Positions 9,901 to 40,535 of a stretch of DNA of 64,000 nt are shown here, one piece after another (positions within the stretch are counted from its first letter, which is position 1; the number at the start of each line of letters is the position of its first letter). Source of the stretch: Flavobacteriales bacterium. Its GTDB lineage: Bacteria; Bacteroidota; Bacteroidia; UBA10329. The notes beneath the pieces are model-generated. The model saw only the letters and a list, made by a program, of their open reading frames with translations, was not told where the DNA came from and made no database searches. The DNA lies in NCBI GenBank assembly GCA_044356305.1, contig JBIKWM010000002.1, forward strand, positions 132,053-196,052, written 5' to 3'. A program made the position numbers and the translations under genes.

Positions 9901-12900
9901 ATCCAGCGGTTGTAATGGTTGCAGACTGAGCAGTTCCACCGCTCGGGCTCCAGTTATAGGTGTTGGCTGTGCTCGAGGTCAGAGTAACGCTGCCGCCTTG
10001 GCAAATTGCAATTGGACCGCCCGCTGTAACAGTAGGCACAGTCGGAGCAATGTCGTTGCTCAGGGTGAATGCCCCCGTGCCGGTCCCGAATCCTGTGACA
10101 TAAACAAAATACTGCGTTCCAGCTGTGGTGGCCGCTGTCACACTGCTCTGAAGGCCGCAGGCATCGTCATTACCGCCCACGCAGACCAAAGAGGTGCAAG
10201 GCCCTTCAAACACACCTATCTTACTATCGTAAGTAGTGCCAGTGCATGTGTTCAAGGTCACTGCGGCTCCTGTACCGAAGAACGAATACCATACCCCTGG
10301 AGCTGTATTGAGGGTCGTGGTACATGTGGCCGGGGCATCACTTGCATCTGCGCCCACTGTGGTCCCGTTCACTGGCGTTCCGCATGTAAGTGGCAATGCT
10401 CCACCGCACAGATCATTTACCGGAGCTGGGGTACAGGTCAACGTCAGTGTGAAGTCACCTGAATTGGTCCCGAATCCGGTCACGTAGATAAGGTACTCCT
10501 GTCCCACTATAGAAGTGAATGCCACACTGCTCTGAAGGCCGCAGGCGTCATCATTTCCAGCCACGCATCCCAAGGTGGCACAAGGACCGGTGAACACCCC
10601 GATCTTGGTGTCCCAAGCAGCACCCCCACAGGTTGATACTGTAACAGCATCGCCTGTTCCGGTGAATGTGTACCACACACCGGGTGACGTGTTCAATGTC
10701 GTGGTACATGTGGCCGGGGCATCTGCCGCATCAGCTCCGGTAGTTGTACCGTTTACCGATTGTCCACATGTAATTGCAATTGCCCCACCGCACAGGTCGT
10801 TGGGGATTGTATTCGATGTCACAGTCACGGGTTGGCAATCTTGGTCGGTACCACAGGTGTTTGTAACCGTGAGGCAAACTGTGTATGTCCCTGCCGCGGC
10901 ATAGGTATGTGCAGGGTTGGCCGTGTTGTCAGTGCCCCCATCACCAAAATCCCACGCATAGGTTGTTGGCCCACCGGTGCTGGCATCAGTGAAGGTGGCG
11001 TCCAAGTTATTGGTCACTGAAGTGAATGAAGCCGTTGGTGCTGTATTGACCGCTACAGTAGCTGTACCGCTTCCCGTGCCTGTACAAGTCGTTGCATCAG
11101 TAACGTTTGGTATTGTGTAAGTCCCAGCAGTGCTCACGGTCTGAGTGAACGGGCTTGTGGTGATGTTCAATGTCGAATTAGAAGTGCCATCATTCAGAGT
11201 AACTGTCCAAGGGCCTGTGCCGGTGAGGGTGATTGTCAGGTCGGTTGTCTGACCCTGACAGATGGTGGCCCCACCAGATAGTGTTGCGGTCGGGGCCGGG
11301 TTAACAGTGACTACAGTTGGAAGCGATGTAGCCTGGCAATTATTGACATCAACCGTTGTAACGGTATAAGAACCAGAAGTGGTCACCGTATTGGTCTGCC
11401 CTGTTCCACCTGTCGGGGCCCATGTGTAAGAAGCAGAAGTATTTGCCGAAAGGGTAACACTTCCACCCTGACAGAAGGTCGTTGGGCCTCCTGCAGTGAT
11501 GGTCGGGCCGATTGGCGTCATGTTATTGCTGAGTGTGAACGCTCCCGTTGCCGTACCGAAGCCGGTCACATACACGAAGTACTGGGTGCCGGCCGTGGTG
11601 TTTGCCGTCACACTGCTCTGTAGGCCCGAACCGCAACCTGTTGCATCATCATTTCCGGCTATACAGGTAAGTGCGGTGCACGGCCCTTGATAGACCCCTA
11701 TCTTACTGTCATATGTTGTGCCGGTGCAGGTGTTGAAGGTGACCGGGGCGCCCGTACCAAAGAAAGAGTACCACACACCACCTGCAGTATTGAGCGTTGT
11801 GGTACAAGGCGAGAGGGCGCCTGTCGTGGTGGAATTCACAGTGGTGCCGTTCACAGCCACTCCGCATGTGAGCGGAATTGCATTGCCACACAGGTCATTG
11901 GCAGGAGGGGGCGGTGCAACGCAGGTATTGCAGGTCACCGTGGTGGTGCGGCATGTGTTCTGGGTTCCGCACGCATTGCTAGTGCTGATATGCAGCCTAA
12001 CTGTTCCTGAGAATGTGGCCGTCCACGTGATTGGGGTGGTGCCAGAGGCAAGTACAGGCGTAGAGCTTGTCCCATCGGTGAGCACCAGCCAATCTGTTGC
12101 AATACTCGAGGTGAAGGTGTAGGTCTGACCGGCCACCACATTGTTTATCACAGCAAACTCACCAGCGAAATTGCAGGTTGAGATAGTGACTGTTGTCGGT
12201 GTGGTCGGTGCGTTGGCGGTACCGAATTGCGGAGTATGAATGCAGTCAACAGTCCCGACAACCGTCACATTCTGACAGATCTGGTTACTGCCGCAGCCAT
12301 TGGTGGCGGTCAGGCATACGTTATAAGTGCCTCCGGCCGCATAGGTGTATGTCGGGTTCTGAAGGGTCGAGGTGCCTCCGTCACCAAAGGTCCATGCCCA
12401 AGAGGTGGGAGTACCTGTGCTCGCATCCGTGAAGCTCGCGTCAAGTGCAGCCGTTGTCGATGTGAATGCCGCAACCGGGGTGCTGCCCGTGGTCACTGTG
12501 GCCGATCCGCTCGATGTGCCTGTGCAGCCGGTGGCATCGCTCACACTCGATACGGTGTACGTGCCGGCAGTGGTGACCGTGGTGGTGAATGGGCTGGTCA
12601 AAATCCCTGTGGTGGGTGTGCCGTTCAGCACAATACTCCACGGGGCCGTGCCTGTAAGGGCAACGCTCACCGTCACCCCCACTCCGTTGCACACCACACC
12701 ACCACCACTCACCGTGGCTGTTGGGGCCGTGTTCACTGTCACAGTGGTCGGGGCCGATGTCGCAGCGCAGTTGTTCAGATCATTCACTGCAACGGTGTAT
12801 GAACCGGCAGTGGTTATAGTAGCCGACTGAGCCGTGCCTCCACTTGGAGACCATGCATAGGTGTTGGCCGTGCTCGAAGTAAGAGTAACACTGCCGCCCT

Positions 12901-15205
12901 GACAGAAAGTGGTAGGCCCACCGGCAGTCACTGTAGGAGTCACCGCGGTCAAATCATTGCTCAAGGTAAATGCTCCCGTTGCAGTACCGAAGCCGGTCAC
13001 ATACACAAAGTACTGGGTGCCGGCAGTTGTAGCCGCATTCACTGTGCTCTGGAGGCCGCAGGCATCATCATTTCCACCTACACAGGTCAATGAGGCACAT
13101 GGGCCCTGAAACACCCCTATCTTGCTATCATAGGTGGTGCCAGTACATGTATTGAGACTAACTGTGGCACCTGTTCCAAAGAAAGAATACCAAACCCCGG
13201 CAGCTGTATTCAATGCGGTGGTGCACGTTGCAGGAGCGTCAGCAGCGGTGGCACCCACCGTGGTGCCGTTCACCGGAGTACCGCAAGTCAGGGGAATGGC
13301 TCCACCGCACAAGTCATTGGTAGGGGGAGATACGCAAGTGATGCTCATGGTGAATGCACCTGTATTTGCTCCGAACCCAGTAACATAAATGAAATAGGTG
13401 GTTCCTACTGCACTTGTGAAAGTCACGGTGCTCTGCAATCCGCATGCATCGTCATTTCCTGCAACACAGGTCAGCGCCCCGCATGCCCCACTGAATACCC
13501 CAAGTTTACTGTCGTAGGCCGTGCCAGTGCATGTGCTGACTGTAACAATGTCACCCGTTCCCACAAAACGGTACCATATACCCCCAGAAGTATTTAAGGT
13601 CGTAGTGCAGGTTGCTGGTGCATCGGCAAGGTCGGAACCAACCGTGGTACCGGTCACCGTCTGACCGCAGGTAACGGTTATCGCACCGCCACAAAGGTCA
13701 TTCACTATACCACCGGACACAGTCACATTCTGGCAGATCTGATTGCTGCCGCAACCGTTGGTCGCAGTAAGGCACACGTTATAGGTGCCACTCGCTGCGT
13801 AGGTGTAGGATGGGTTCTGCAGGGTCGAGGTGCCTCCGTCACCAAAAGTCCATGCCCAAGAGGTAGGGCTTCCTGTACTTGCATCAGTGAAACTCGCAGC
13901 AAGCGCAGCTGTGGTGGAGGTGAATGCCGCGGTAGGCGTGACTCCCGTAGTAACGACAGCTGAGCCACTCGATGTGCCCGTGCAGCCGTTAGCATCAGTC
14001 ACACTCGATACAGTGTAAGTAGCTGCGGCAGTTACGGTAGTGGTGAATGGGCTCGTAGCGATTCCGTTGAATGGCGTGCCATTAAGGACAATGTTCCAAG
14101 GGGCCGTTCCCGTAAGGGCCACTGAAACTGGCACTCCTACTCCGTTACATACCACGCCACCGCCACTAACTGTGGCTGTTGGGGCTGTGAACACAGTGAC
14201 CGCAGTGGCTGCCGAAGTTGCCGCACAACCATTGATGGTGCCGGCAACGGTGTAGCTTCCTGCAGCAGATACGGTAGCCGATTGGGCCGAACCACCGCTC
14301 GGGCTCCATGCATAGGTGCTTTGGAAAGAAGATGTGAGGGTGACGCTACCACCGGGGCAGAATGAAGTAGGACCGCCAGCTGTAACGGTCGGAGTAACCG
14401 CTGCCAGATCATTCGACATTGTGAAGTTGCCTGTATTGCCACCGAAACCGGTCACATAAACAAGGTAATTCGTCCCAAGAGTGGAGGTGAATGTCACGGT
14501 TGATTGAACCCCGCACGCATCATCATTACCTGCCACACATGTCAGTGCCCCGCATGTGCCCGTGAACACCGCAATCTGGCTGTCGTAATCAGTTCCAGTG
14601 CACGTTGACAGGGTTACAGAAGCTCCGGTTCCAACAAAGCTGTACCATACACCTCCGGCCCCGGTCAGCGCAGCCGATGTTCCACAAGCCGCCCCTGGGG
14701 CACCGGTTGTCGTGGCATTGATGGTTGACTCCGACACAGAAACACCGCAGGTCAATGGAATCGCATCAGCACACAGGTCATTGGCAGGGGGAGTGACAGC
14801 TCCGAACAGACAGCCTGCGCAAGCAGGTTCGGCAGCAGCCTCACCGGCACAGATACCGTCCCATTGGGTATTACAACAGAATGGGTCTAGGGCGCAAATG
14901 GCCGTCTCGCAAGCAGGGTCGCTCGGAAATCCAGCTGTGGCCTGGGTCTGGTCGCAGAATGCACTCCCACCTGTGCTCAAGCAGCCAGCACAAGCAGGTT
15001 CCGCGGCCGCACTCGCTGCACAAATTCCATCCCAAAGGGTGTTGCAACAAAACGGGTCTGCAGGACAAATGGCATTCTGACAGTTGATGTCTGATGGAAA
15101 TCCTGCCGTTCCCTGCGCCTGATCACAGAACTGGGCGAATGCACTTTGAAACCCGAATAGGGCGAATGCGATTGTCGCAATTGTCTGAATGGAGAAATTT
15201 CTCAT
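6962..15205 (-). CDS. Giant (2747 aa) T9SS-secreted adhesin-like repeat protein: two N-terminal 8-Cys modules, many PPC-like domains, PKD domains, Ig-like repeats, type-A sorting domain
   Basis: Signal peptide MRNFSIQTIATIAFALFGFQSAFAQ. Two copies of FCDQxQxTAGFPSD..CxxAICxxDPFCCNTxWDGICA..AAEPACAGCL. ~110-aa modules NDLCGGAIPLTCG...GVWYSF.GTG..VT.STC.GT.YDSKIGVF.G.C..L.CV.GNDDACGLQS.V...GFG..TGAFTLS repeated >8 times. WAWTFGDGGTST..NP.YTY PKD motifs. C-terminal VYPNPSGGQFTV...GTYLLQVLN CTD. Confidence 0.85.
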   Translation of the reverse strand: MRNFSIQTIATIAFALFGFQSAFAQFCDQAQGTAGFPSDINCQNAICPADPFCCNTLWDGICAASAAAEPACAGCLSTGGSAFCDQTQATAGFPSDPACETAICALDPFCCNTQWDGICAGEAAAEPACAGCLFGAVTPPANDLCADAIPLTCGVSVSESTINATTTGAPGAACGTSAALTGAGGVWYSFVGTGASVTLSTCTGTDYDSQIAVFTGTCGALTCVAGNDDACGVQSTVTFTSTLGTNYLVYVTGFGGNTGNFTMSNDLAAVTPTVTAGGPTSFCPGGSVTLTSSFQSTYAWSPSGGSAQSATVSAAGSYTVAGTINGCAATSAATAVTVFTAPTATVSGGGVVCNGVGVPVSVALTGTAPWNIVLNGTPFNGIATSPFTTTVTAAATYTVSSVTDANGCTGTSSGSAVVTTGVTPTAAFTSTTAALAASFTDASTGSPTSWAWTFGDGGTSTLQNPSYTYAASGTYNVCLTATNGCGSNQICQNVTVSGGIVNDLCGGAITVTCGQTVTGTTVGSDLADAPATCTTTLNTSGGIWYRFVGTGDIVTVSTCTGTAYDSKLGVFSGACGALTCVAGNDDACGLQSTVTFTSAVGTTYFIYVTGFGANTGAFTMSITCVSPPTNDLCGGAIPLTCGTPVNGTTVGATAADAPATCTTALNTAAGVWYSFFGTGATVSLNTCTGTTYDSKIGVFQGPCASLTCVGGNDDACGLQSTVNAATTAGTQYFVYVTGFGTATGAFTLSNDLTAVTPTVTAGGPTTFCQGGSVTLTSSTANTYAWSPSGGTAQSATITTAGSYTVAVNDLNNCAATSAPTTVTVNTAPTATVSGGGVVCNGVGVTVSVALTGTAPWSIVLNGTPTTGILTSPFTTTVTTAGTYTVSSVSDATGCTGTSSGSATVTTGSTPVAAFTSTTAALDASFTDASTGTPTSWAWTFGDGGTSTLQNPTYTYAAGGTYNVCLTATNGCGSNQICQNVTVVGTVDCIHTPQFGTANAPTTPTTVTISTCNFAGEFAVINNVVAGQTYTFTSSIATDWLVLTDGTSSTPVLASGTTPITWTATFSGTVRLHISTSNACGTQNTCRTTTVTCNTCVAPPPPANDLCGNAIPLTCGVAVNGTTVNSTTTGALSPCTTTLNTAGGVWYSFFGTGAPVTFNTCTGTTYDSKIGVYQGPCTALTCIAGNDDATGCGSGLQSSVTANTTAGTQYFVYVTGFGTATGAFTLSNNMTPIGPTITAGGPTTFCQGGSVTLSANTSASYTWAPTGGTGQTNTVTTSGSYTVTTVDVNNCQATSLPTVVTVNPAPTATLSGGATICQGQTTDLTITLTGTGPWTVTLNDGTSNSTLNITTSPFTQTVSTAGTYTIPNVTDATTCTGTGSGTATVAVNTAPTASFTSVTNNLDATFTDASTGGPTTYAWDFGDGGTDNTANPAHTYAAAGTYTVCLTVTNTCGTDQDCQPVTVTSNTIPNDLCGGAIAITCGQSVNGTTTGADAADAPATCTTTLNTSPGVWYTFTGTGDAVTVSTCGGAAWDTKIGVFTGPCATLGCVAGNDDACGLQSSVAFTSIVGQEYLIYVTGFGTNSGDFTLTLTCTPAPVNDLCGGALPLTCGTPVNGTTVGADASDAPATCTTTLNTAPGVWYSFFGTGAAVTLNTCTGTTYDSKIGVFEGPCTSLVCVGGNDDACGLQSSVTAATTAGTQYFVYVTGFGTGTGAFTLSNDIAPTVPTVTAGGPIAICQGGSVTLTSSTANTYNWSPSGGTAQSATITTAGSYTVTVNDLNNCSATSTATVVTVNPAPTATLSGGGTACSGQTVDLTITTTGTGPWTVVMNDGSTNSTINVTSSPFTQAVGAAGNYSLVSVADASSCPGTVSGSATVTVTTSPTATISGGGQVCNGVGVDITGTFTGTGPWTVVLNDGLNDIPLPPIVTSPFTQNVTLPGTYTIVSVTDATSCPGTVSGSAIVTSGNGPTAAFTSAPTDLTVVFTDASTGSPTTWAWDFGDSNTSTQQNPTHTYTTAGTYNVCLTVTNNCGTNQICQSVTVTSASCTAAAGTISSSATACLVNGTATLTGTPGGNAVVPGGFATVYALSQGTNIVQVSATPTFTVTATGTYTLHTLVYNPADIDPTSVPLPVPVALVNGQLIQGGGTFCGSLDLVGATVTVVDAIVPTVTALGPVSFCQGGSVDIQSSTANSYSWTPSGNTQTITATATGTYSVTTVDANGCSATSNTIDVTVNSGPTADISGGGAICAGAGVDITGTLTGVGPWDVVVSTPGGPFPITGITASPYSQNVTVPGDYILISVSDASGCPGTVSGTATVTTGGNLPVASFTASANLLTVTFTDASTDATTYAWDFGDSGTSTSASPTHTYLADGTYNVCLTVTNSCGTDQFCQTVTVSSNACPVSAGTLNASAAPACLTPGQTVTLDATPSGNSIVPTGFQTLYLLVQGGIIQQTNTTPSFAVNSNGIYTIHTFVYDPNTFSTATIQNGVTTVASVNAQLLQGGGAICASLALSGVNFNVVTPVVPVVTPQGPTDICPGDAVLLTSSTASQYLWLPNQATASFTHASAPGDYTVTTVDANGCIATSAPVVVTNLPVTTGIITANGNTLTVDQVTTGYQWFHNGDPIPGANDQSYDAVESGYYWVIYTDPNGCETSSDTIEFSYIGIEEVGFDYISVYPNPSGGQFTVAVGEAKEELTFIVTELTGRVLFRQTIAQMGDIRQEISLDVASGTYLLQVLNNDGRGTSSLIQVMR

Positions 15206-32206: not shown

Positions 32207-33388
32207 CTAATTTTTTAGTAACCGGCTCCTTACCACCGAACCATCTCTCAATTTGACCGAAACAACATATACCCCCGAGTACAGGTGCTCAACATGGATT
32301 GTACTCTTCAAACCACTCACCTTCTGAACAGCCACCACTTTGCCCAATTGGTCTTGGATGGTGACATGTTCTATTTCAGAATTTGAGCCTGTAACATTGA
32401 ACTGTACTTGATCATTTGCTGGGTTTGGATAAAGTTCAAGGGTGTATTCCTCCGATTCTCGAATGCCGATGCTATTATCCTCACGCAATTCAACGGCATC
32501 GATGAAGTAAGAACTTGCTTCCCAACTATTGATAAGGGGTGGGTTGGAACTGACACGTTGAAAACTCAGTTCATCCTCTGAGCGGAAAACACCAATGGTC
32601 ATGAACTTCTCGCCACCATGAGCAATAAATTGCCCACTGATCTCAACCCAATTCACCCTGTCCTCCAACAAAAAACTATCCGGGCTCTCCACCTGTGGTT
32701 TGGCCACAATAAAACTATCAATAGGAAGAAAGCGGGTGGTATTCTCAGTAAACAGGGCCCCAATGTTGGCTACAGCGAAATTCACACTATCAGCAAGATT
32801 CACACGGCATTTGAACAGATAACCGTGGCCACTATTTAGGCTTTCAGGCAGTTCCATCCACAGGTATTCTCGGGCATTTGCCCAAAATGGGGTGTAGCAG
32901 GCAAAGTGGCCATAGGCTACCCCATCATATGCATCTTGATAACCATATTGATTGTTTGGCACCCCAAACTTTGGCCAATCCTCGTTGCTGCATGCATTGA
33001 AGTAATCAACTGACCCATAGGCTGAGCCCCAATACTCTGACACAGTTATCCAGCCTGGGCTAGAAGGGCATGCCGGGTCACCGTTTACATCCAATTCTAT
33101 CTCTTCAAAACTATAGTTCGGAATAATATTAGGCCCTAACTGGGCAATTGCGTTTTGTACATTAAACAATGTGACCCAAAGAAAGAAATATGTAGTGGTG
33201 GTTCTCCCCCTTTCGCTCGCGTCTCGCGAGTGAGAATTTCTCTGCCTCTGGCATTCTGAGAAAATTCTTTTCCATTGACGCGCCCGAGCGAGGCTGTGCG
33301 GTGTGCTGGCGCGTAGGGTCTTTCCCTCGCGCCTTTTATTCGGTGGTCTCCAGCCCACCCAGTGGCCAGTGTTCTCATGCCTCATCAT
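32207..33388 (-). CDS. Low-GC T9SS type-A cargo protein; 5' end runs into repeat unit, start codon uncertain (possible pseudogene)
   Basis: C-terminal ELYPNPANDQVQFNV...GVYVVSVKL sorting domain. Signal-peptide-like ...YFFLWVTLFNVQNAIAQ has no in-frame ATG/GTG. The ORF-track N-terminus MMRHENTGH... is repeat-derived. GC ~44% vs ~60% flanks. Confidence 0.55.
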   Translation of the reverse strand: MMRHENTGHWVGWRPPNKRREGKTLRASTPHSLARARQWKRIFSECQRQRNSHSRDASERGRTTTTYFFLWVTLFNVQNAIAQLGPNIIPNYSFEEIELDVNGDPACPSSPGWITVSEYWGSAYGSVDYFNACSNEDWPKFGVPNNQYGYQDAYDGVAYGHFACYTPFWANAREYLWMELPESLNSGHGYLFKCRVNLADSVNFAVANIGALFTENTTRFLPIDSFIVAKPQVESPDSFLLEDRVNWVEISGQFIAHGGEKFMTIGVFRSEDELSFQRVSSNPPLINSWEASSYFIDAVELREDNSIGIRESEEYTLELYPNPANDQVQFNVTGSNSEIEHVTIQDQLGKVVAVQKVSGLKSTIHVEHLYSGVYVVSVKLRDGSVVRSRLLKN

Positions 33389-33470
33389 CAGTTCCGTTCA
33401 CCAAAGGTCAACAATTATCTGAGTCACACACCATTCCGGCTCATCCAGATCCTTCCATTACGACCCCCTC
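33205..33470. repeat. Tandem repeat unit A copy 1 (~265 bp, hairpin-rich)
   Basis: ccccct-ttcgctcgcgtctcgcgagtgagaatttctctgcctctggcattctga...cattacgaccccctcc. ~90% identical to copies 2 and 3. Confidence 0.85.
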
Positions 33471-33736
33471 CCCCCCCTTCGCTCGCGTCTCGCGAGTGAG
33501 AATTTCTCTGCCTCTGGCATTCTGAAAAAATTCTTTTCCATTGGCGCGCCCGAGCGAGGCTGTGCGGTGTGCTGGCGCGTAGGGTCCTTCCCTCGCGCCA
33601 TTTATTCGGTGGGCTCCAGCCCACCCGGTGGCCAGTGTTCTCATGCCTGCTCATCATTCCGATTCACCAAAGGTCAACAATTATCTGATTCACACACCAT
33701 TCCAGCTCATCCAGATCCTTCCATTACGACCCCCTC
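33471..33736. repeat. Tandem repeat unit A copy 2
   Basis: Directly abuts copy 1 head-to-tail. Same internal palindromes (ctcgcgag, gagaatttctc, ggtgggctccagcccacc). Confidence 0.85.
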
Positions 33737-33900
33737 CTCACAAACAGCCAACAGCCATCTGTAAATCTGTACTCATCCATAATCCACATCAGCCTTAACA
33801 CCCGGTACCTTCCACCACACCCCTCCTCGCAAATAGCCATCAATCATTTGTATATCCGTACTCATCTGTAATTCGCATCAGCCCCTAACAGAAAACCCCG

Positions 33901-34167
33901 ACCCCCCCCTTCGCTCGCGTCTCGCGAGTGAGAATTTCTCTGCCTCTGGCATTCTGAAAAAATTCTTTTCCATTGGCGCGCCCGAGCGAGGCTGTGCGAT
34001 GTGCTGGCGCGTAGGGTCCTTCCCTCGCGCCATTTATTCGGTGGGCTCCTGCCCTCCCAGTGACCCGTGTTCTCATGCCTCATCATCAGTTCAATTCACC
34101 AAAGGTCAACAATTATCTGAGTCACACACCATTCCGGCTCATCCAGATCCTTCCATTACGACCCCCT
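33901..34167. repeat. Tandem repeat unit A copy 3
   Basis: Separated from copy 2 by a 164-bp spacer made of sub-repeat B. Confidence 0.85.
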
Positions 34168-34480
34168 CCTCGCAAATAGCCATCAATCATTTGTATATCC
34201 GTACTCATCTGTAATTCGCATCAGCCCCTAACAGAAAACCCCGACCATACCGGCCGGGGCCTTCCCTTTCACTCTCACCCTCACTTTCACTCTCACCCTA
34301 CCAAATGGCCAACAGCCAACGGCTATCAACCATTTGTATATCCGTACTCATCTGTAATTCGCATCAGCCCTAAACAGAAAACCCTCACCACACCGGCCAG
34401 GGCCTTCCCTTTCACTCTCACCCTCACTTTCACTCTAACAAATGGCCAACAGCCAACGGCTATCAACCATCTGTGTCTCC
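34168..34480. repeat. Mosaic of sub-repeats B/C (70-90 bp units)
   Basis: tcgcaaatagccatcaatcatttgtatatccgtactcatctgtaattcgcatcagcccctaacagaaaaccccgacc occurs at 33825 and 34159. ggccttccctttcactctcaccctcactttcactct...aaatggccaacagccaacggctatcaaccat occurs at 34258 and 34401. Confidence 0.8.
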
Positions 34481-34637
34481 GCCAACCCCACAAATCCCTG
34501 CCCCATCACCATAGGGCAACGGGTATTTGACGGGCCTCGGGCCATCAAAACCAGCATTATCCTCCTTTTTGGTAGCCCCTCTTCACAGAAAACTGTCGGA
34601 GGGCACCAGATTGCTGAAAGCCGCGCCATCACTGCTT

Positions 34638-34770
34638 TCGTACGATCCATAATTGCTATCGCACGATCCATAATTGCTGTCGCACGTCTCATAATTGCTG
34701 TCGTACGATCCATGATCGCTGTCGTACGTATCGCACATTGCTGTCGCTTGCTTCCCGAATGCTGTCGTTC
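34638..34770. repeat. Six degenerate 21-bp direct repeats (iteron-like) upstream of the sensor-phosphatase gene
   Basis: cgtacgatccataattgctat / cgcacgatccataattgctgt / cgcacgtctcataattgctgt / cgtacgatccatgatcgctgt / cgtacgtatcgcacattgctgt ... spaced 21 bp, ~70-200 bp upstream of 34839. Confidence 0.7.
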
Positions 34771-34838
34771 TCCGCATCTCCCCTGACACTCTACTCCGCA
34801 CAATCATTGACTCTCGCCCCGGCCCCGGCCTACATCGC

Positions 34839-37800
34839 ATGCAGCGCGTGGCGCAGCCCAAGGAGACCCATAACCTAAAGCGCAGCGGTGCCGTATCAGC
34901 GCGCTGCCCTGACCAGGCCCTCTTCATCCGCGCCTTGCGAAACCTACACGGCATAGCGGCCCTTGTGGCCGCCCTTCTGCTGGCCCCATCGGTCACCGCA
35001 CAGACATACGACATCCGCACCTTCGGCATTGACGAGGGTCTGCCGCAGGCCGAGGTCAACCACATGATCCAAGACAGCCGCGGCCACCTCGTAGTGGCCA
35101 CCAACGGGGGCGGTGCGGCCCTCTTTGACGGGTCAGGGTTTGCCGTGATAGGAATGGCCGAAGGACTGCCTGACGTCAAGGTGACCCACGTGGCCGCAGG
35201 CCCTGACGGCTCCCTTTGGCTTGCACACCCGGGGCACGGCCTGAGCAGGGGTACCGGCCAGGCCCCGCTCAGCTTCAGTGCTCTGGCCGGCCTTCCGAGC
35301 CAACAGGTGAACACCCTACTGGCCGATGGCGACAGCGTGCTCTGGGCCGGAACCTTTGGTGGGCTGTGCGCTGTGCGCGGCAAGGACCTGCGCCTACTGA
35401 CCAAGGCCGATGGTCTTCCGTCTGACGACATACGCGCCATATGCCGCGACCGGGCGGGTGCGCTCTGGGTGGGCACTTACGGGGGCGGTGTGGCCCGCCT
35501 CGACAACGGCACGTTCGTGCCCTTCGGCATCGAGGCCGGACTCACTGACGGCTTCATCTCCGATCTGTTCCTGGCCCGTGACGGCCGCATGCTGGTGGCC
35601 ACTGCCTCGGGCGTGCTGGTGTGGGACGGCCAATCGTTCGCACCCCTGCGCAATGCAGGGGCCGTGCGTGTCAATGCCATGGCCGAGGATGCACAGGGCA
35701 ACATCTGGCTCGCCACCCCCGAAGGGGCCCTCATGGTGGGCGACCTGGGCCGCGAACTGCTCTCTGACCGCAACGGACTGCCCCACCCCGAGGTGCTCAG
35801 CATCTGTATAGACCGCGAACAGAACATCTGGTTCGGCACGCGCAAGGGCCTGGCCCGGCTCGCACACAGGGCCATGGCCCACTTTGCCCCGCAGGGCCGC
35901 CCCGCCCTCGAGCCGAGCGCCTTTGGCCGGTTGCCCGATGGCACGCTGGTGCTCACCGACCGCACTGGCGGGGCGCTGCGTATTGACGGCAATGCATTTA
36001 TTCCCATTGTCAACGATGCCGATGTGGCCAGCCACCCGTTCAGCAGCCTCGCCACCGGGGCCGATGGCAGGCTATGGCTGGGCACCTCCGATTTCGGTGG
36101 TCTCTTCAGCATCAGCGATGGCAAGGTGAGCATCTATTCTGATGAGCCCGGGCTGATGGACAACAGCATCTCGGCCCTGGTCACTGGGGCCGACAGCCGC
36201 CTCATCATCGGTACCCCGGGCGGACTGAGCTATTTCGATGGCGACCGGTTTGTGCCCGGCCCGTCCGATCTGGGCCACATCACCGCCCTCACTCCCACCG
36301 TGGGGTCCGATGTGCTTGTAGGGACACTTTCGGGGGCCGTTCTGCACCTGCATGCCGACCGCGCAGACACGGTACACAGCGCCAAGGTGCCCATCACGGC
36401 CCTGGTGGCCATGCCCGATGGGCGCAAGGCCATAGGCACCGATGGCGAGGGCGTGGTGGTAATTGGCAAAGAGAGCCGTTTCGCAGTGACCGAGGCCGAT
36501 GGCCTCACCTCGCGGTTTGTGCGCAGCCTTGTGTGGGACGGCCGCCACCTGTGGGCAGGCACGGCCAAAGGCGTGTCGCGGCTTCTCCTCGGTGCCGATT
36601 CGGCCCAAGTGCTCGCCATCACCCAGGCGCACGGATTCAGCGGCAGCGAGTGTCTGCCGGGCGCACTGATGACCGATGGCGATATGCTGTGGGTGGGCAC
36701 CATCAAGGGCGTCACACGCATCAACAAATCGCTGGTCGGGCGCGATACCGTCCAGCCTGTGGTGTTCCTCACATCGGTTCAGCTATTGCTGCAGGAGGTG
36801 AACAGCGGGGCCGGCACCTCCGCCCTACCCCACAGCCTCGACCTCGGCCACGATGACAACCACCTGCGATTCAGTTTCAAGGCCATCTCCCTTACCAATC
36901 CGGAGCTTATCACCTATCGTTGGCGACTGGTGGGGTATGATGTCGAATGGAACGAGGGCAGCAGCGGGGTGGCCAATTATCCGAACCTGCCTCACGGAGA
37001 GTATGTGTTTGAAGTGGTGGCCTGCAACAGCGATGGCGTGTGTACCGAGGCTCCGGTGCAATTCAGCTTCCGCATCCGCCCTCCCTTCTGGAAAACGGTC
37101 TGGTTCTATGTCGTTGTGGCCTTTGCCGTCATGACCACCGTGGTGCTGTGGGTGCGCTGGCGCGAGCGCAGGCTGCTGGCCCTCAACCGCGAACTGGAGG
37201 ATAAGGTGGACCTGCGCACCCGCGAGCTGAAGGAACAGCGCGACCTGGTGGAGGAGAAGAACAGGCACATCACCGAAGGGATAGAGTATGCCCGCAACAT
37301 CCAGATGGCCATTCTGCCCTCGGCTTCCGAGCTCGATAGGGCGTTCAGTGAACATTTCGTGATCTACATGCCCAAAGACACCGTGGGGGGCGACTTCTAT
37401 TGGGCCTATACCAGCGGCACGGTCACATGGGCCGTGGCAGCCGACTGCACCGGACATGGTGTGGCAGGGGCATTCATGAGCATGATAGGCAGCGACCTGC
37501 TCAACCAGCTCATCATTGAGCAGGGGGCCACATCGCCTGCTGCGGTGCTGCGAGAGCTCGACCGCGGCATCAAACTGGCCTTTGCCCAGAGCGCCAAGGA
37601 GTTTGAGAACGATCAGGGCATGGACGTGGCCATGGTGCGCCTTGACCGCGCCTCCCGACACATCACATTTGCAGGGGCCATGCGGCCATTGCTGGTGGTG
37701 GGCCAAGAGGTGAACGAGACCGAGGGCGACCGGCACACCATCTCCAGTGCCGAACATGGGCCGGTCGCCTTCACCGACCGCTCCATCACTCTGGCCGAAG

Positions 37801-38015
37801 GCGAGACCGTTTATATCTATTCCGATGGGCTCTGCGACCAGTTCGGTGGGCCAAGGGGTAAGAAATTCGGGTCGAAACAGCTGCGCGAGCTGATCGCTGC
37901 CATGAACGGACAGCCCCTTGCGGCACAGCACGATGCCCTGCTCAGCGCCATCACCGCATGGAAAGGCCAAGAGCCTCAACAGGACGACATCATGATCCTC
38001 GCATTCAGACCTTGA
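34839..38015 (+). CDS. Membrane sensor: periplasmic two-component-regulator beta-propeller + Y_Y_Y domain, TM helix, cytoplasmic PP2C/SpoIIE serine phosphatase
   Basis: Repeated propeller blades (WFGT.KGL, LWVGTYGGGVARLD etc.). TM VWFYVVVAFAVMTTVVLWV. Coiled coil. SpoIIE core VGGDFYWAYT...AVAADCTGHGVAGAFMSMIG...DGLCDQFGG...QDDIMILAFR. Confidence 0.8.
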   Translation: MQRVAQPKETHNLKRSGAVSARCPDQALFIRALRNLHGIAALVAALLLAPSVTAQTYDIRTFGIDEGLPQAEVNHMIQDSRGHLVVATNGGGAALFDGSGFAVIGMAEGLPDVKVTHVAAGPDGSLWLAHPGHGLSRGTGQAPLSFSALAGLPSQQVNTLLADGDSVLWAGTFGGLCAVRGKDLRLLTKADGLPSDDIRAICRDRAGALWVGTYGGGVARLDNGTFVPFGIEAGLTDGFISDLFLARDGRMLVATASGVLVWDGQSFAPLRNAGAVRVNAMAEDAQGNIWLATPEGALMVGDLGRELLSDRNGLPHPEVLSICIDREQNIWFGTRKGLARLAHRAMAHFAPQGRPALEPSAFGRLPDGTLVLTDRTGGALRIDGNAFIPIVNDADVASHPFSSLATGADGRLWLGTSDFGGLFSISDGKVSIYSDEPGLMDNSISALVTGADSRLIIGTPGGLSYFDGDRFVPGPSDLGHITALTPTVGSDVLVGTLSGAVLHLHADRADTVHSAKVPITALVAMPDGRKAIGTDGEGVVVIGKESRFAVTEADGLTSRFVRSLVWDGRHLWAGTAKGVSRLLLGADSAQVLAITQAHGFSGSECLPGALMTDGDMLWVGTIKGVTRINKSLVGRDTVQPVVFLTSVQLLLQEVNSGAGTSALPHSLDLGHDDNHLRFSFKAISLTNPELITYRWRLVGYDVEWNEGSSGVANYPNLPHGEYVFEVVACNSDGVCTEAPVQFSFRIRPPFWKTVWFYVVVAFAVMTTVVLWVRWRERRLLALNRELEDKVDLRTRELKEQRDLVEEKNRHITEGIEYARNIQMAILPSASELDRAFSEHFVIYMPKDTVGGDFYWAYTSGTVTWAVAADCTGHGVAGAFMSMIGSDLLNQLIIEQGATSPAAVLRELDRGIKLAFAQSAKEFENDQGMDVAMVRLDRASRHITFAGAMRPLLVVGQEVNETEGDRHTISSAEHGPVAFTDRSITLAEGETVYIYSDGLCDQFGGPRGKKFGSKQLRELIAAMNGQPLAAQHDALLSAITAWKGQEPQQDDIMILAFRP

Positions 38016-38040: not shown

Positions 38041-40404
38041 ATGTTCCGCCCGCTCATACTGCTCCTCTCTTTCACCGCCCTGATCGGTCAGGCATGGGCG
38101 CAGCAGGCCGAGATTGACCGGCTCAACGACCGCCTGCGGGCCGAGCTTGCCCCCAAGGGTACCAAGGCCGACACGGCCAGGGCTGAGGTGATGGTGCAAC
38201 TGGCCGAGCTCTACGTGAAGGTGGACCCCGACCGCGCACTTGACCTGTGTAAGGATGCGCTCGGTATAAGTATCCGCCACGCCAACAACCGCCTTGTGTC
38301 GCGCATCTACAACTGCACGGGCACCGTTAACCGCATCAAGGGCGACTATGAGAAGGCGATCCAGTTTCACGAACGCGCACTTGAGACTGACCGGAAGTCC
38401 GCTGACCGAATGGGCATCGCCCTGTCGCTCAACAACCTTGGCAACGCCTATCTGGGACAGGGCCGACTGAATGAGGCCAGGCAGCGCTATGCCGAATCGT
38501 TGGCCATCAGGCAGGATCTGGGCGATCAGGCTCCTATTGCCGCATCGCTCAATAACCTTGGAATGGTATACCGCAACATGGGCGACCATGACAAGGCCCT
38601 TGTCTATTACCAGAATGCCCTTAGGATATTCCAACAGCAGAATGACCAGCTCGGCACGGCCAATGCGCTGAACAACATCGGCATCGTTCAGCGCAATCAG
38701 GGAAATCTTGACCGGGCCATGGAGAGTTTCCAATCGGCACTGAAGGTGTTCGAGAAGGAGTACAATAAGGTGGGAATGGCTTTCACCCTCAACAACATTG
38801 GCAACATATACCAGCAGCAGGGCAATCAGGGGCAGGCCCTGAGCCTGTATGACCAATCGTTGAAGCTCAGTGAGGAGCTGGGCGACCGCGCCTCGGCTGC
38901 GGGCAAGTACAACAACATGGGGGCCGTTTATCACGACAAGGGCGATATGAGTTCGGCCCTCGATATGACCCAACGGGCTCTGCGCATACAACGGGAGCTG
39001 GGCGACCAGAGCGGTCAGGCCAACACGCTTAACAATCTGGGGGCCTATTACCGCGAACAGGGCGATGCCGACCGCGCGCTGGAGAGTTTCCTTGAGGCAG
39101 AGCGCATACAGAGGCGCACAGGCGACAACAACTACACCGTGGAGACCCTCACTTCCATTGGCGAACTGTATAGCAAGAAGGGCGAAGGCGGCAAGGGCCT
39201 CCGCTACCTCGAAGGGGCCATGGAGGCTGCCAAAGAGAAGCGGTCAGGACAAGAGCTGCAGCGTGTATACACCGCCATGAGCGAGGCCTATGCGCAGGCA
39301 GGCGACTTTGAACGCAGCTATAGGTACCAAAAACTCAATGCCAATCTCAAAGACTCGCTCGAAAGGACAGTGAATGTGCGCCAATTGGCAGAGATGCAGG
39401 CCAAATTTGAGACCGAGCGCAAACAGCGCGAGATAGACCAGCTGAACCGCGACCGCGAGGTGAAGGACCTTGTCATGGGCCGCCAGCGCATGGTGCGTAA
39501 CCTGATGATCGTGTTGGCGGTGCTGATAATGGCGCTGGCCGTGGTGCTGTTTCAGCGCTACAGGGCCAAGCAGCGGGCCAATGAGGAACTGGGGCGGAAA
39601 AACGAGGAGATAGAGGCCCAACGCTCCATCCTGAAAGAGAAGAACGAGGAGATAACCGATAGCATTGAGTACGCCAAGCGCATTCAGGATGCCATCCTGC
39701 CATCACTTGATGAGGTGACGCGGGTGCTGCCCCAGAGTTTCATCTATTTCCGCCCAAAGGCCATTGTTAGTGGCGATTTCTATTGGTTCAATGAGGTGAA
39801 CGGAACTGCTTTCCTCGCAGCCGTTGACTGTACCGGCCACGGGGTGCCCGGGGCTTTTATGAGTATGATAGGCAACGACCACCTCAACCAGGTGGTTCTG
39901 GTAGAGGGGTGCAAACGCCCCGATGAGATCCTCAACCGCCTGCATGCCGAGGTGCAGCACACCCTGCGCCAGCGCCACGGCCTCACTGAGACCCACGTGG
40001 GCATGGACATTGCCCTTTGCGCCATTGACCTTGAGAGCGGACTTCTGCAATTTGCCGCTGCCAATAGGTATCTGATGCTTTTCCGTGGAGAGGAACTCAC
40101 CGAACTGAAGGGCGACCATCTCAATGTGGGCGGCATCATGCACGAGGATGTGCGCAACTATACACTCCACGAGCTTCAACTCAACCCGGGCGACTGCCTT
40201 TATATGTTCAGCGATGGAGTCACTGATCAGTTCGGTGGACCAGACGACCGCAAGTTCGGTTACCGCAGATTGCGCGAGATGCTGCGCGACATACGCCACC
40301 TGCCCATGCAGGATCAGCGCGCCACTGTTGAACGCGGTCTGCTCTCATGGATGGGCCAACGTGACCAGATTGATGATTTCGTACTGATCGGGGTGCGGGT
40401 GTGA
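38041..40404 (+). CDS. Membrane sensor: TPR-repeat periplasmic domain, TM helix, PP2C/SpoIIE serine phosphatase
   Basis: Signal peptide MFRPLILLLSFTALIGQAWAQ. ~9 TPRs (LNNLGNAYLGQGRLNEA...). TM LMIVLAVLIMALAVVLF. SpoIIE core SGDFYWFNEV...AAVDCTGHGVPGAFMSMIGN...DGVTDQFGG...DDFVLIGVRV. Confidence 0.8.
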   Translation: MFRPLILLLSFTALIGQAWAQQAEIDRLNDRLRAELAPKGTKADTARAEVMVQLAELYVKVDPDRALDLCKDALGISIRHANNRLVSRIYNCTGTVNRIKGDYEKAIQFHERALETDRKSADRMGIALSLNNLGNAYLGQGRLNEARQRYAESLAIRQDLGDQAPIAASLNNLGMVYRNMGDHDKALVYYQNALRIFQQQNDQLGTANALNNIGIVQRNQGNLDRAMESFQSALKVFEKEYNKVGMAFTLNNIGNIYQQQGNQGQALSLYDQSLKLSEELGDRASAAGKYNNMGAVYHDKGDMSSALDMTQRALRIQRELGDQSGQANTLNNLGAYYREQGDADRALESFLEAERIQRRTGDNNYTVETLTSIGELYSKKGEGGKGLRYLEGAMEAAKEKRSGQELQRVYTAMSEAYAQAGDFERSYRYQKLNANLKDSLERTVNVRQLAEMQAKFETERKQREIDQLNRDREVKDLVMGRQRMVRNLMIVLAVLIMALAVVLFQRYRAKQRANEELGRKNEEIEAQRSILKEKNEEITDSIEYAKRIQDAILPSLDEVTRVLPQSFIYFRPKAIVSGDFYWFNEVNGTAFLAAVDCTGHGVPGAFMSMIGNDHLNQVVLVEGCKRPDEILNRLHAEVQHTLRQRHGLTETHVGMDIALCAIDLESGLLQFAAANRYLMLFRGEELTELKGDHLNVGGIMHEDVRNYTLHELQLNPGDCLYMFSDGVTDQFGGPDDRKFGYRRLREMLRDIRHLPMQDQRATVERGLLSWMGQRDQIDDFVLIGVRV

Positions 40405-40461: not shown

Positions 40462-40535
40462 TGGAGGTCACGAGCGGATTTGAACCGCTGTACGAGGTTT
40501 TGCAGACCTCTGCCTAACCGCTCGGCCACGTGACC
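40462..40535 (-). tRNA. tRNA-Cys (anticodon GCA)
   Basis: Reverse complement GGTCACGTGGCCGAGCGGTTAGGCAGAGGTCTGCAAAACCTCGTACAGCGGTTCAAATCCGCTCGTGACCTCCA. 7-bp acceptor stem, D-arm GCCGAGCGGTTAGGC, anticodon loop CTGCAAA, T-arm GGTTCAAATCC, U73 discriminator, encoded CCA. Confidence 0.85.

What the first reader, a model, noticed from the sequence alone, without database searches (positions are those of the whole stretch)
33737..34480. Mosaic of shorter nested direct repeats flanking the 265-bp units
A 76-bp unit (tcgcaaatagccatcaatcatttgtatatccgtactcatctgtaattcgcatcagcccctaacagaaaaccccgacc) occurs identically at 33825 and 34159, with a diverged copy at 33737. An ~85-bp unit (accggcc.gggccttccctttcactctcaccctcactttcactct...aaatggccaacagccaacggctatcaaccat) occurs at 34246 and 34390, with a further partial copy at 34300. 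Together they make a >1.2-kb ORF-poor region of layered duplications. This pattern suggests repeated slipped-strand or unequal-crossover events rather than one insertion.
Basis: seen in the sequence. Interest (0 to 1): 0.5.

Follow-up and report, generated by a model that had tools for sequence, protein, structure and literature searches.

The report
Modular terminator-bearing intergenic repeat array
The nested repeats are real. They are a strain-variable stack of a few reusable non-coding modules, one carrying a terminator-like hairpin and one a conserved folded element, sitting between two diverging genes of an uncultured Bacteroidota-like bacterium; this kind of modular repeat is known from other bacteria.

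Summary
The 1.63-kb gap at 33206-34838 lies between a minus-strand T9SS-cargo gene and a plus-strand SpoIIE-type phosphatase gene, and it is built from a few modules.

- **U:** a 266-nt unit, three copies, about 95% alike.
- **X:** a 77-nt unit with two identical copies, one at 94% and one at 79%.
- **M:** a 137-143-nt module, two intact copies. Read on the minus strand it is heptad repeats, a purine-rich hexamer run, then a GC-rich hairpin followed by a U-tract.

An independent assembly of a 98.5%-identical strain reproduces 33866-34838. It differs there by five SNPs and one extra unit of a neighbouring 21-nt tandem repeat. Another strain carries a recombinant U.

The same modules occur at a second locus, directly after the stop codon of an unrelated gene, in one or three tandem copies. 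The U core also occurs at a third locus in a more distant relative, with compensatory changes in one hairpin.

They belong to a small lineage-specific family of structured intergenic modules, most like pneumococcal BOX and SPRITE repeats. Nothing matches in Rfam, phage records or plasmid records. Interest is modest.

The parts
32207..33205 (-). T9SS-cargo gene (Por_Secre_tail C-terminal domain), 44.8% GC. Its reading frame runs on, open, into U1, giving a 393-aa ORF that ends at 33388.
   Evidence: Pfam hit, translation, GC. Family members are 320-346 aa and start with a signal peptide of about 22 aa. NCBI annotates 393 aa and JGI 320 aa.
33206..33471 (-). U1, a 266-nt unit. On the minus strand it reads: conserved block GGAATGGTGTGTGACTCAGATAATTGTTGACCTTTGGTGAA, ATGATGAGGCAT, hairpin H1 (33342-33360), hairpin H2 (33308-33333), S part with hairpin H3 (33216-33230).
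33472..33737 (-). U2, second 266-nt unit, in tandem with U1.
33738..33826 (-). A: old, degenerate copy of X plus a decayed hairpin region, 79% identical to X.
33827..33903 (-). B: X copy identical to 34170-34246. It keeps only the 3' arm and the U-tract of the terminator hairpin; the 5' arm is replaced by the end of U3.
33904..34169 (-). U3, third 266-nt unit. An orthologous copy in strain L048 differs by 4 SNPs.
34170..34333 (-). Module Ma. On the minus strand it reads: heptad hairpin (34303-34333), purine-rich GTGAGA/GTGAAA run, terminator-like hairpin (34233-34265) with UUUUCUGUU, then the conserved X flank (34170-34246).
   Evidence: (z = -5.8)
34334..34470 (-). Module Mb, second intact copy, about 90% identical to Ma. 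Heptad hairpin at 34440-34470, terminator-like hairpin at 34376-34408, X copy at 34322-34384 (overlaps the heptad end of Ma).
   Evidence: (z = -6.8)
34626..34746 (.). 21-nt tandem repeat, 5.7 copies, 93-213 nt upstream of the ATG of the phosphatase gene. Strain L048 has one more unit.
34839..38015 (+). Right-hand flanking gene: sensor (Reg_prop, Y_Y_Y) fused to a SpoIIE/RsbU-type phosphatase. It is transcribed away from the array.

Best explanation
The region is an array of a few reusable non-coding modules from a small lineage-specific family of structured intergenic repeats. It has grown, shrunk and been reshuffled by unequal recombination and slippage between its own copies.

**Order on the minus strand,** the strand of the T9SS gene, starting from the phosphatase-gene side:
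1. Two intact M modules. Each is a heptad-repeat block, a hexamer purine run, a GC-rich 14-bp hairpin with a U-tract, and a conserved flank (X) of about 55 nt.
2. U3.
3. An X copy whose hairpin has been cut by U3.
4. A decayed X.
5. U2.
6. U1, fused in frame to the T9SS-cargo gene.

**Inferred function of M.** M acts as a Rho-independent terminator or insulator for minus-strand transcription. At a second locus it sits immediately after a gene on that same strand.

**Inferred function of U.** U is a structured non-coding unit with a conserved upstream block, a closing stem, hairpins H1 and H2, and an S part with hairpin H3. It is either the promoter and leader of the gene that follows, or a small RNA.

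**Shown:** the anatomy, the strand asymmetry of the hairpins, conservation of the architecture between strains, polymorphism, the other loci, and compensatory changes in H2 and H3.

**Inferred:** termination activity, transcription of U, and the recombination mechanism.
For: **Anatomy and identities:**

**Hairpins are strand-specific.**
- The minus-strand M modules fold with z = -5.8 and -6.8 into a 5' hairpin, a single-stranded purine run and a terminator hairpin. The plus strand gives only z = -2.8.
- Four of the 14 stem pairs are G-U, which would be A-C on the other strand.
- The consensus scan flags minus-strand terminator-like sites at 34253-34241 and 34455-34443.

**Second locus** (L049 = L052, L050, L051).
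- The M module starts 3 nt after the stop codon of a same-strand 309-aa gene.
- It is present three times, followed by X and U, in one variant. In the other variant it is present once, followed by other sequence and an S-like element.
- The two variants are 99.7-100% identical up to the hairpin.
- The hairpin-plus-X core is 94% identical to the window, while U is 76-84% identical.

**Third context.** The U core lies between a T9SS homologue and a RidA gene in L045-L047, E = 1.9e-10.

**Structure support.**
- H2 has 3 of 10 pairs with changes on both sides.
- Across the whole U core 93% of cells are paired.
- The covariation score is 0.140 against 0.086 in shuffles, reached by 2 of 500 shuffles.
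- H3 reads CTCGCG/CGCGAG in the window and CTCCGCA/TGCGGAG in L051.

**Not coding.**
- Among U1-U3 there are 7 nonsynonymous and 4 synonymous differences.
- Against L049 there are 6 and 1, plus a 1-nt indel.
- L045 stops early.
- No family member carries the 57-aa extension.

**Recombination and stability:**. The architecture is conserved in a 98.5%-identical strain.
Against: - In the window no minus-strand gene precedes the two intact M modules, so there they have nothing obvious to terminate.
- The M hairpin shows only one-sided changes, and its pair statistics do not beat shuffles.
- Covariation in U rests on three lineages and on an alignment fitted to the model.
- I could not show that loci 2 and 3 lie in the same genome as the window, so dispersal within one genome is not proven.
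- Scans of public genome, metagenome and viral collections with exact U and X patterns found nothing. The metagenome collection did not return even the JGI contigs L043 and L044, which contain the U pattern, so those negatives are weak and the family is only known to be rare.
- No promoter could be placed convincingly.
- No transcript data are available.
Confidence: 0.55

Rival explanations
1. Purely neutral local segmental duplications of functionless intergenic DNA by slippage or unequal crossover. There would be no element family and no role.
For: - Nested periods of 266, 343/432 and 143 nt with microhomology at the junctions.
- Hairpins H1 in U1 and U3 carry disruptive, uncompensated changes.
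- Substitutions among the U copies look neutral.
- No hits in public scans.
Against: - The same M, X and U modules occur after an unrelated gene at a second locus, and the U core occurs at a third.
- The M-X core is more conserved (94%) than U (76-84%) between loci.
- There are compensatory changes in H2 and H3.
- The architecture is identical in a strain whose flanking gene has a synonymous divergence of about 3%. However, the SNP-poor tract also extends about 400 nt into that gene, so recent recombination could explain this.
Confidence: 0.2
2. Tandem small-RNA genes. Each U, and possibly each M, would be an independent minus-strand transcript. The array would be a multi-copy sRNA locus.
For: - In L051 the S-like element is followed by its own bidirectional terminator-like hairpin and then a convergent gene, so it does not lead into a coding gene.
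- In L045 the U core is antisense to both neighbouring genes.
- M has the shape 5' hairpin, single-stranded run, terminator.
- H2 and H3 covary.
- One A-to-G change in the S stem keeps pairing only as a G-U on the minus strand.
Against: - There is no convincing promoter.
- There is no Rfam match.
- U2 and U3 lack an intact terminator after them.
- The heptad hairpin and the purine run of M are not conserved at locus 2.
- There are too few sequences for a firm covariation test.
Confidence: 0.15
3. Non-autonomous mobile elements (MITE or IS200/IS605-derived) that inserted repeatedly here. One such insertion would have entered the signal-peptide region of the T9SS gene.
For: - There are 171 nt, in frame and free of stops, between an ATGAGGCAT and the hydrophobic core of the signal peptide. 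The same ATGAGGCAT is the start of the 72%-identical allele in L042.
- U has subterminal hairpins.
- The modules are seen in several contexts.
Against: - No terminal inverted repeats were found (0 inverted pairs).
- There is no consistent target-site duplication. The GAGAAC repeats are out of register with the frame (sequence).
- There is no transposase in the window.
- There are no matches in the plasmid, phage or viral collections.
- The similarity to the L042 upstream sequence is marginal: 8 to 36 of 500 shuffles score as well.
Confidence: 0.06
4. Assembly artefact, or decayed or hidden protein-coding sequence.
For: - Short-read contigs break in the region.
- Several ORFs of 50-120 aa cross the units.
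- NCBI annotates the 393-aa fusion ORF.
Against: - An independent contig reproduces 33866-34838.
- tblastn of 44 family and neighbour proteins gives nothing better than E = 0.003.
- Frames are not conserved between loci.
- Outside low-complexity proteins, protein searches returned a single homologue, P0057, an 84-aa ORF called across the L049 repeat copy.
Confidence: 0.04

Closest known systems
BOX elements of Streptococcus pneumoniae (boxA, a variable number of tandem boxB, boxC) and E. coli BIMEs
   Same: - A composite intergenic repeat built from distinct modules.
- One module occurs in variable tandem number between loci and strains.
- Stable stem-loops are predicted if the element is transcribed.
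- It may affect neighbouring gene expression.
The BOX description is from PMC3049150. The BIME comparison is from my own knowledge.
   Different: - Only three contexts are known here, against more than 100 copies per genome.
- The modules are much longer (77-266 nt against about 45-60 nt).
- No terminal inverted repeats were found.
- The host is high-GC and Bacteroidota-like.
- There is no sequence similarity to BOX or BIMEs.
- One unit is fused to the 5' end of a gene.
[quoted passage not shown]
   Same: A repeated intergenic element whose core is a long duplex followed by a U-rich tract. It is thought able to act as a terminator (PMC3049150). M has a 14-bp stem with a U-tract and sits just after a gene at locus 2.
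   Different: - M occurs in tandem arrays.
- M carries extra heptad and hexamer sub-repeats and a conserved 55-nt 3' flank.
- M is GC-rich, not AT-rich.
- Genome-wide enrichment at gene 3' ends could not be tested.
Variable-number tandem repeats and contingency loci upstream of surface-protein genes
   Same: Copy number differs between strains: the 21-nt array and M at locus 2. The array lies upstream of a secreted or surface (T9SS) cargo gene that itself varies between strains.
   Different: Apart from the 21-nt array, the units are hundreds of nucleotides long and are not simple-sequence tracts. No on/off frame or promoter-spacing logic is evident.

Membership tests
Modular interspersed intergenic repeats (BOX/BIME type) | Composite of distinct modules, with one module in variable tandem number | tested here: met
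   U, X and M modules are present. M occurs twice in the window and once or three times at locus 2.
Modular interspersed intergenic repeats (BOX/BIME type) | Many copies dispersed through one genome | tested here: inconclusive
   Three contexts were found on separate metagenome contigs. There is no other copy in the 64-kb window or in the 711 kb of held loci.
Modular interspersed intergenic repeats (BOX/BIME type) | Intergenic location and a stable predicted fold | tested here: met
   All copies are intergenic. Fold z-scores range from -2 to -6.8.
MITE | Terminal inverted repeats and target-site duplication | tested here: not met
   0 inverted-repeat pairs in 32500-35500. Unit ends are direct G-runs. 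The 77-nt flanks of U3 are copies of X, not a short duplication.
Rho-independent terminator (SPRITE-like repeat) | GC-rich stem followed directly by a U-tract on the transcribed strand | tested here: met
   On the minus strand, GGAAGGCCCCGGCC-GGUAU-GGUCGGGGUUUUCU followed by GUU at 34265-34233, and the variant at 34408-34376.
Rho-independent terminator (SPRITE-like repeat) | Position just downstream of a gene on the same strand | tested here: inconclusive
   Met at locus 2, where the module starts 3 nt and the hairpin about 47 nt after the stop codon. Not met in the window, where only a doubtful 51-aa minus-strand ORF at 34738-34583 lies upstream.
Rho-independent terminator (SPRITE-like repeat) | Termination of transcription | not testable with these tools
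   Needs Term-seq or RNA-seq, or a reporter assay.
Any Rfam RNA family | Covariance-model score at or near the gathering threshold | tested here: not met
   The only hit above gathering score in the window is a tRNA at 40465-40535. Nothing meaningful appears at E <= 10 in 33000-35000, or at E <= 5 in L049, L051 and L047.
CRISPR array | Short (23-50 nt) identical repeats separated by unique spacers, usually with cas genes | tested here: not met
   The units are 77-266 nt and abut one another with no unique spacers. None of the 17 larger ORFs of the window scanned against Pfam or NCBIfam matched a Cas family; the remaining ORFs were not scanned.
Protein-coding sequence or pseudogene remnant | A conserved reading frame with an excess of synonymous change, or detectable homology to proteins | tested here: not met
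   Nonsynonymous to synonymous counts are 7:4 and 6:1, with frame-breaking indels. No significant protein homology.

The most novel reading that the evidence does not exclude
The U unit may contain a previously undescribed structured RNA of an uncultured Bacteroidota-like lineage. It would be a junction of about 95 nt, made of a closing stem, H1 (GGGUGGGCUGGAGCCCACC), GAAUAA, and H2 with a conserved AAAGA loop. It is often followed by an S element of about 80 nt, which has a 50-nt near-invariant stretch and a covarying hairpin H3. In the window it is present in three tandem copies, with one copy fused to a T9SS-cargo gene. Its role would be a cis-acting leader or a trans-acting sRNA. The M modules would be the cognate terminators, and copy number would be tuned by recombination.
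Probability: 0.25. Interest if true: 0.55.

Novelty: new member of a known kind. Interest (0 to 1): 0.3.

Why it matters
The result shows that what looks like layered junk duplication is a recombining set of structured modules shared by several loci. That explains why short-read assemblies of this organism break here. It also explains why the adjacent T9SS-cargo gene is annotated inconsistently, as 393 aa by NCBI and 320 aa by JGI.

If the U core and S element are transcribed, they would be a new RNA motif family in a poorly known Bacteroidota-like lineage. They would also be an example of repeat-driven remodelling of the 5' end of a secreted-protein gene. Otherwise this is an ordinary case of modular intergenic repeats, useful at most as a strain-typing marker.

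Tried and rejected
**Exact-pattern scans.** Scans for U (TCGCGTCTCGCGAGTGAGAATTTC and TCACTCGCGAGACGCGAGCGAA) and for X (GTACTCATCNNTAATNCNCATCAGCC) found nothing in genome contigs, metagenome contigs or viral contigs. The metagenome collection did not return even L043 and L044, which contain the U pattern, so these negatives are weak.

**Orthologous locus in GTDB species representatives.** The best relatives of the phosphatase are 21-36% identical, so there is no usable synteny.

**Six-frame concatenated protein query.** It hit 8000 candidates and returned nothing. It was probably swamped by low-complexity words. A clean 116-aa frame then found P0057 and L049.

**Exact look-ups of small ORFs in the repeats.** None is on record.

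**X and the 3' part of U as ancient homologues.** The alignment score is no better than shuffles.

**The repeats as decayed T9SS paralogue coding sequence.** tblastn found nothing convincing. There is only a marginal collinear similarity between the U upstream block and the 3' end of the upstream paralogue in L042.

**The 171 nt as an insertion flanked by GAGAAC duplications.** The two copies are out of register with the frame, so clean excision would frameshift.

**Purifying selection inferred from zero SNPs in 34170-34600 between strains.** The SNP-free tract continues about 400 nt into the coding gene, so a recent recombination tract explains it equally well.

**Other readings rejected on anatomy:** an integron attC array, a CRISPR array, an invertible promoter, and a tmRNA or tRNA attachment-site remnant.

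**Model searches.** CM and nhmmer searches of all held loci found no copies beyond L043-L052 and L045-L047.

**Plasmid and phage collections.** No match.

Full report
**1. What is in the sequence**

The gap at 33206-34838 lies between two genes. On the left is a minus-strand gene with a T9SS C-terminal sorting domain, at 32207 to about 33205. On the right is a plus-strand Reg_prop/Y_Y_Y/SpoIIE phosphatase gene at 34839-38015.

The gap has 53.5% GC, against 55.6% for the window and 44.8% for the T9SS gene. Its plus strand is strongly C-rich.

Self-comparison resolves it into modules:
- **U1, U2, U3:** 33206-33471, 33472-33737 and 33904-34169. Each is 266 nt, and they are about 95% alike.
- **A:** 33738-33826, a 79% copy of X with a decayed tail.
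- **B and B2:** 33827-33903 and 34170-34246, identical 77-mers (X).
- **Two longer modules of period 143 nt,** 34170-34333 and 34334-34470. X is joined to a TCACTC-type hexamer run and to AAATGGCCAACAGCCAACGGCTATCAACCAT, which is itself four heptads of RGCCAWC type.
- **A 21-nt tandem repeat,** 5.7 copies, at 34626-34746.

Shuffles give none of these matches. The 'partial copy at 34300' is simply the 3' part of the first 85-nt unit.

**2. It is not an artefact, and it is polymorphic**

The window comes from a 296-kb contig that is present in NCBI and in JGI/IMG.

A contig from another JGI sample, L048, has a phosphatase gene 98.5% identical overall. It reproduces 33866-34838, that is end of B, U3, B2 and both long modules. 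It differs by five SNPs and has one extra 21-nt unit.

U3 differs from its orthologue by about 1.5%, whereas U1, U2 and U3 differ from each other by about 5%. The U duplications therefore predate the split of these strains.

Contigs L043 and L044, from two further samples, run from the T9SS gene through a single U into A. Their U is a U2|U3|U1 mosaic of the window's diagnostic SNPs, and it contains 21- and 31-mers that do not exist in the window. It is a real recombinant haplotype and not a walk through a repeat graph.

Other short-read contigs stop inside the repeats.

**3. Reading the modules on the minus strand**

On the strand of the T9SS gene, each long module folds as follows (z = -5.8 and -6.8, against -2.8 for the plus strand):
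- a 15-17-bp hairpin made of the heptads;
- an unpaired purine run of about 30 nt;
- a 14-bp GC-rich hairpin, GGAAGGCCCCGGCC-GGUAU-GGUCGGGGUUUUCU, followed by GUU.

Four of the 14 pairs are G-U, so the stem is strong only on the minus strand. The consensus scan flags minus-strand terminator-like sites there.

Copy b differs from copy a by a C-G to U-A change and one mismatch. B retains only the 3' arm and the U-tract, because the end of U3 replaces the 5' arm. A is decayed. Across eight copies the stem is 87% paired, with only one-sided changes of the G-C/G-U/A-U kind. This is not statistically distinguishable from shuffles.

**4. The U unit**

On the minus strand U reads, in order:
- a block that is nearly invariant between lineages, GGAATGGTGTGTGACTCAGATAATTGTTGACCTTTGGTGAA;
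- ATGATGAGGCAT;
- H1, GGGTGGGCTGGAGCCCACC;
- GAATAA;
- H2, GGCGCGAGGGAAAGACCCTACGCGCC;
- an S part, CAATGGAAAAGAATTTTCTCAGAATGCCAGAGGCAGAGAAATTCTCACTC, then H3 (CTCGCG-AGA-CGCGAG), then CGAAAGGGGG.

*The fusion ORF.* In U1 the frame from ATG 33388 stays open into the T9SS gene, giving a 393-aa ORF. NCBI annotates it that way, and JGI aa from an internal TTG.

Thirty-eight family members were found. They are 320-346 aa long and begin with MR.. and a signal peptide of about 22 aa. None covers the first 60 residues of the window ORF. The hydrophobic core of the window protein's signal peptide, YFFLWVTLF...AIAQ, begins right at the U1 boundary, and no in-frame start codon lies between. In this strain the gene therefore either carries a 57-aa basic extension or has lost its own start.

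The 72%-identical allele in L042 starts with the same ATGAGGCAT and overlaps the stop codon of an upstream T9SS paralogue. Similarity of that upstream sequence to U is only marginal. I leave this point open.

*U is not protein-coding.* Differences among U1-U3 are 7 nonsynonymous to 4 synonymous. Against L049 they are 6 to 1, with a frame-breaking 1-nt indel. In L045 the corresponding frame stops after 33 codons.

**5. The modules occur elsewhere**

A protein search with one open frame of the X-M region found an 84-aa 'hypothetical protein', P0057, on contig L049.

*Locus 2.* The contigs are L049 = L052, L050 and L051, and they come from JGI samples that include the one that yielded L044. A 309-aa gene is followed on its own strand, 3 nt after the stop codon, by an M module.

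In one variant there are three tandem M copies of about 121 nt, then X, then the 5' part of U, where the contig ends. In the other variant there is one M, then 118 nt of other sequence, then an S-like element 85% identical to the window's, then a bidirectional terminator-like hairpin and a convergent gene. The two variants are 99.7-100% identical up to GGTCGGGGTTT and diverge exactly there.

The hairpin-plus-X core is 94% identical to the window, while U is 76-84% identical. The hexamer purine run is absent at locus 2, so it is a local expansion. The TPR-SpoIIE gene upstream in L050 is only 32% identical to the window's, so this is a different locus.

*Locus 3.* An HMM of the U 5' part also hits L045, L046 and L047 (E = 1.9e-10). 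The hit lies in the spacer between a 61%-identical T9SS homologue and a RidA gene, antisense to both.

**6. Structure evidence**

RNAalifold and a covariance-model alignment of the U core give 29 pairs:
- 93% of cells are paired.
- Three pairs have changes on both sides, and all three are in H2. They are G-C to C-G twice and C-G to A-U once.
- The covariation score is 0.140 against 0.086 in shuffles, reached by 2 of 500 shuffles.
- Sliding the partners drops pairing to 30-43%.

The closing stem is GAGGC/GCCUC in the window, GGGCUAUG/CAUAGCCU in L045 and GAGUUUGC/GCAGCCUC in L049. H3 keeps its shape with three swapped pairs between the window and L051.

This amounts to only three lineages, and the alignment is fitted to the model. 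I rate it as suggestive.

Nothing in Rfam matches. The model finds no more copies in 711 kb of held sequence. Plasmid and phage records have nothing similar.

**7. Interpretation**

The simplest account is a lineage-specific family of structured intergenic modules that recombine with one another. Unequal crossover between copies fits all of the following:
- the nested periods;
- the different ages of the copy pairs;
- junctions at G/C-run microhomology;
- the recombinant U;
- the one-versus-three M copies at locus 2;
- the heptad, hexamer and 21-nt copy-number differences.

The position of M at locus 2 and its strand-specific stem and U-tract point to a terminator or insulator role. That role is inferred, not shown. 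The role of U, as leader or sRNA, is open.

The closest described kinds are the modular BOX elements, with variable tandem boxB, and the terminator-like SPRITE repeat of pneumococci (PMC3049150). BIMEs are also close (my own knowledge). There is no sequence relationship to any of these.

Several defining features could not be tested. These are high copy number within one genome, and termination activity. The MITE features, terminal inverted repeats and target duplications, are absent.

**8. Verdict**

This is a new member of a known kind, and interest is modest. The most novel reading still open is that the U core and S element form a new structured RNA family, with a probability of about 0.25.

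Noticed in passing
window 34626-34746: A 21-nt tandem repeat (consensus CCATAATTGCTGTCGTACGAT, 5.7 copies) lies 93-213 nt upstream of the ATG of the phosphatase gene. Strain L048 has exactly one more unit. The repeat is in frame in a 51-aa minus-strand ORF (34738-34583, heptapeptide DSNYGSC repeats), which JGI called as a 58-aa gene in L048. Whether it is a real peptide or a regulatory VNTR is unknown.
   Followed up: partly
window 32207-33388: The T9SS-cargo gene has 44.8% GC against 55.6% for the window. It is strain-variable: L042 carries a 72%-identical allele, and its contig aligns to the window at 94% overall from 33018 leftward, while the downstream 297-aa protein is identical. The 5' 190 nt cannot be aligned between the alleles. 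In the window-type strains no proper start codon precedes the signal peptide, and the gene is annotated as 393 aa (NCBI) or 320 aa (JGI).
   Followed up: partly
window 34150-35251 compared with L048: This tract of about 1.1 kb spans the M modules and the first 413 nt of the phosphatase gene. It has one SNP and one 21-nt indel between strains, while the rest of the gene has 37 SNPs (26 synonymous). It may be a recent recombination tract.
   Followed up: partly
L051 1285-1432 (also the end of L050): An S-like element of about 80 nt with hairpin CTCCGCA-TTGA-TGCGGAG is followed by AAAAGGCCG...CGGCCCTTTTCATTT and then a convergent ORF. The layout looks like a stand-alone small RNA gene.
   Followed up: partly
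window 6962-15205 (minus strand): A giant 2747-aa ORF has internal domain repeats spaced about 1.4-1.5 kb apart, 60-80% identical at the DNA level. It accounts for most of the other repeat families in the window.
   Followed up: no
window 34839-38015 and 38041-40404: Two adjacent genes each end in a SpoIIE/RsbU-type phosphatase domain. One has a Reg_prop/Y_Y_Y sensor and the other has TPR repeats. Locus 2 (L050) also has a TPR-SpoIIE paralogue, 32% identical, two genes upstream of its M module.
   Followed up: partly
L045 19-7499: In a more distant relative, the T9SS homologue is the last of four consecutive same-strand T9SS-cargo genes with overlapping or closely spaced stop and start codons. 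L042 likewise shows an upstream paralogue overlapping the start by ATGA. The window strain lacks such an upstream paralogue and has the repeat array there instead.
   Followed up: partly
window 40465-40535 (minus strand): A tRNA gene is the only Rfam hit above gathering score in the 64-kb window. It lies about 6 kb from the array, and no link to it was seen.
   Followed up: no
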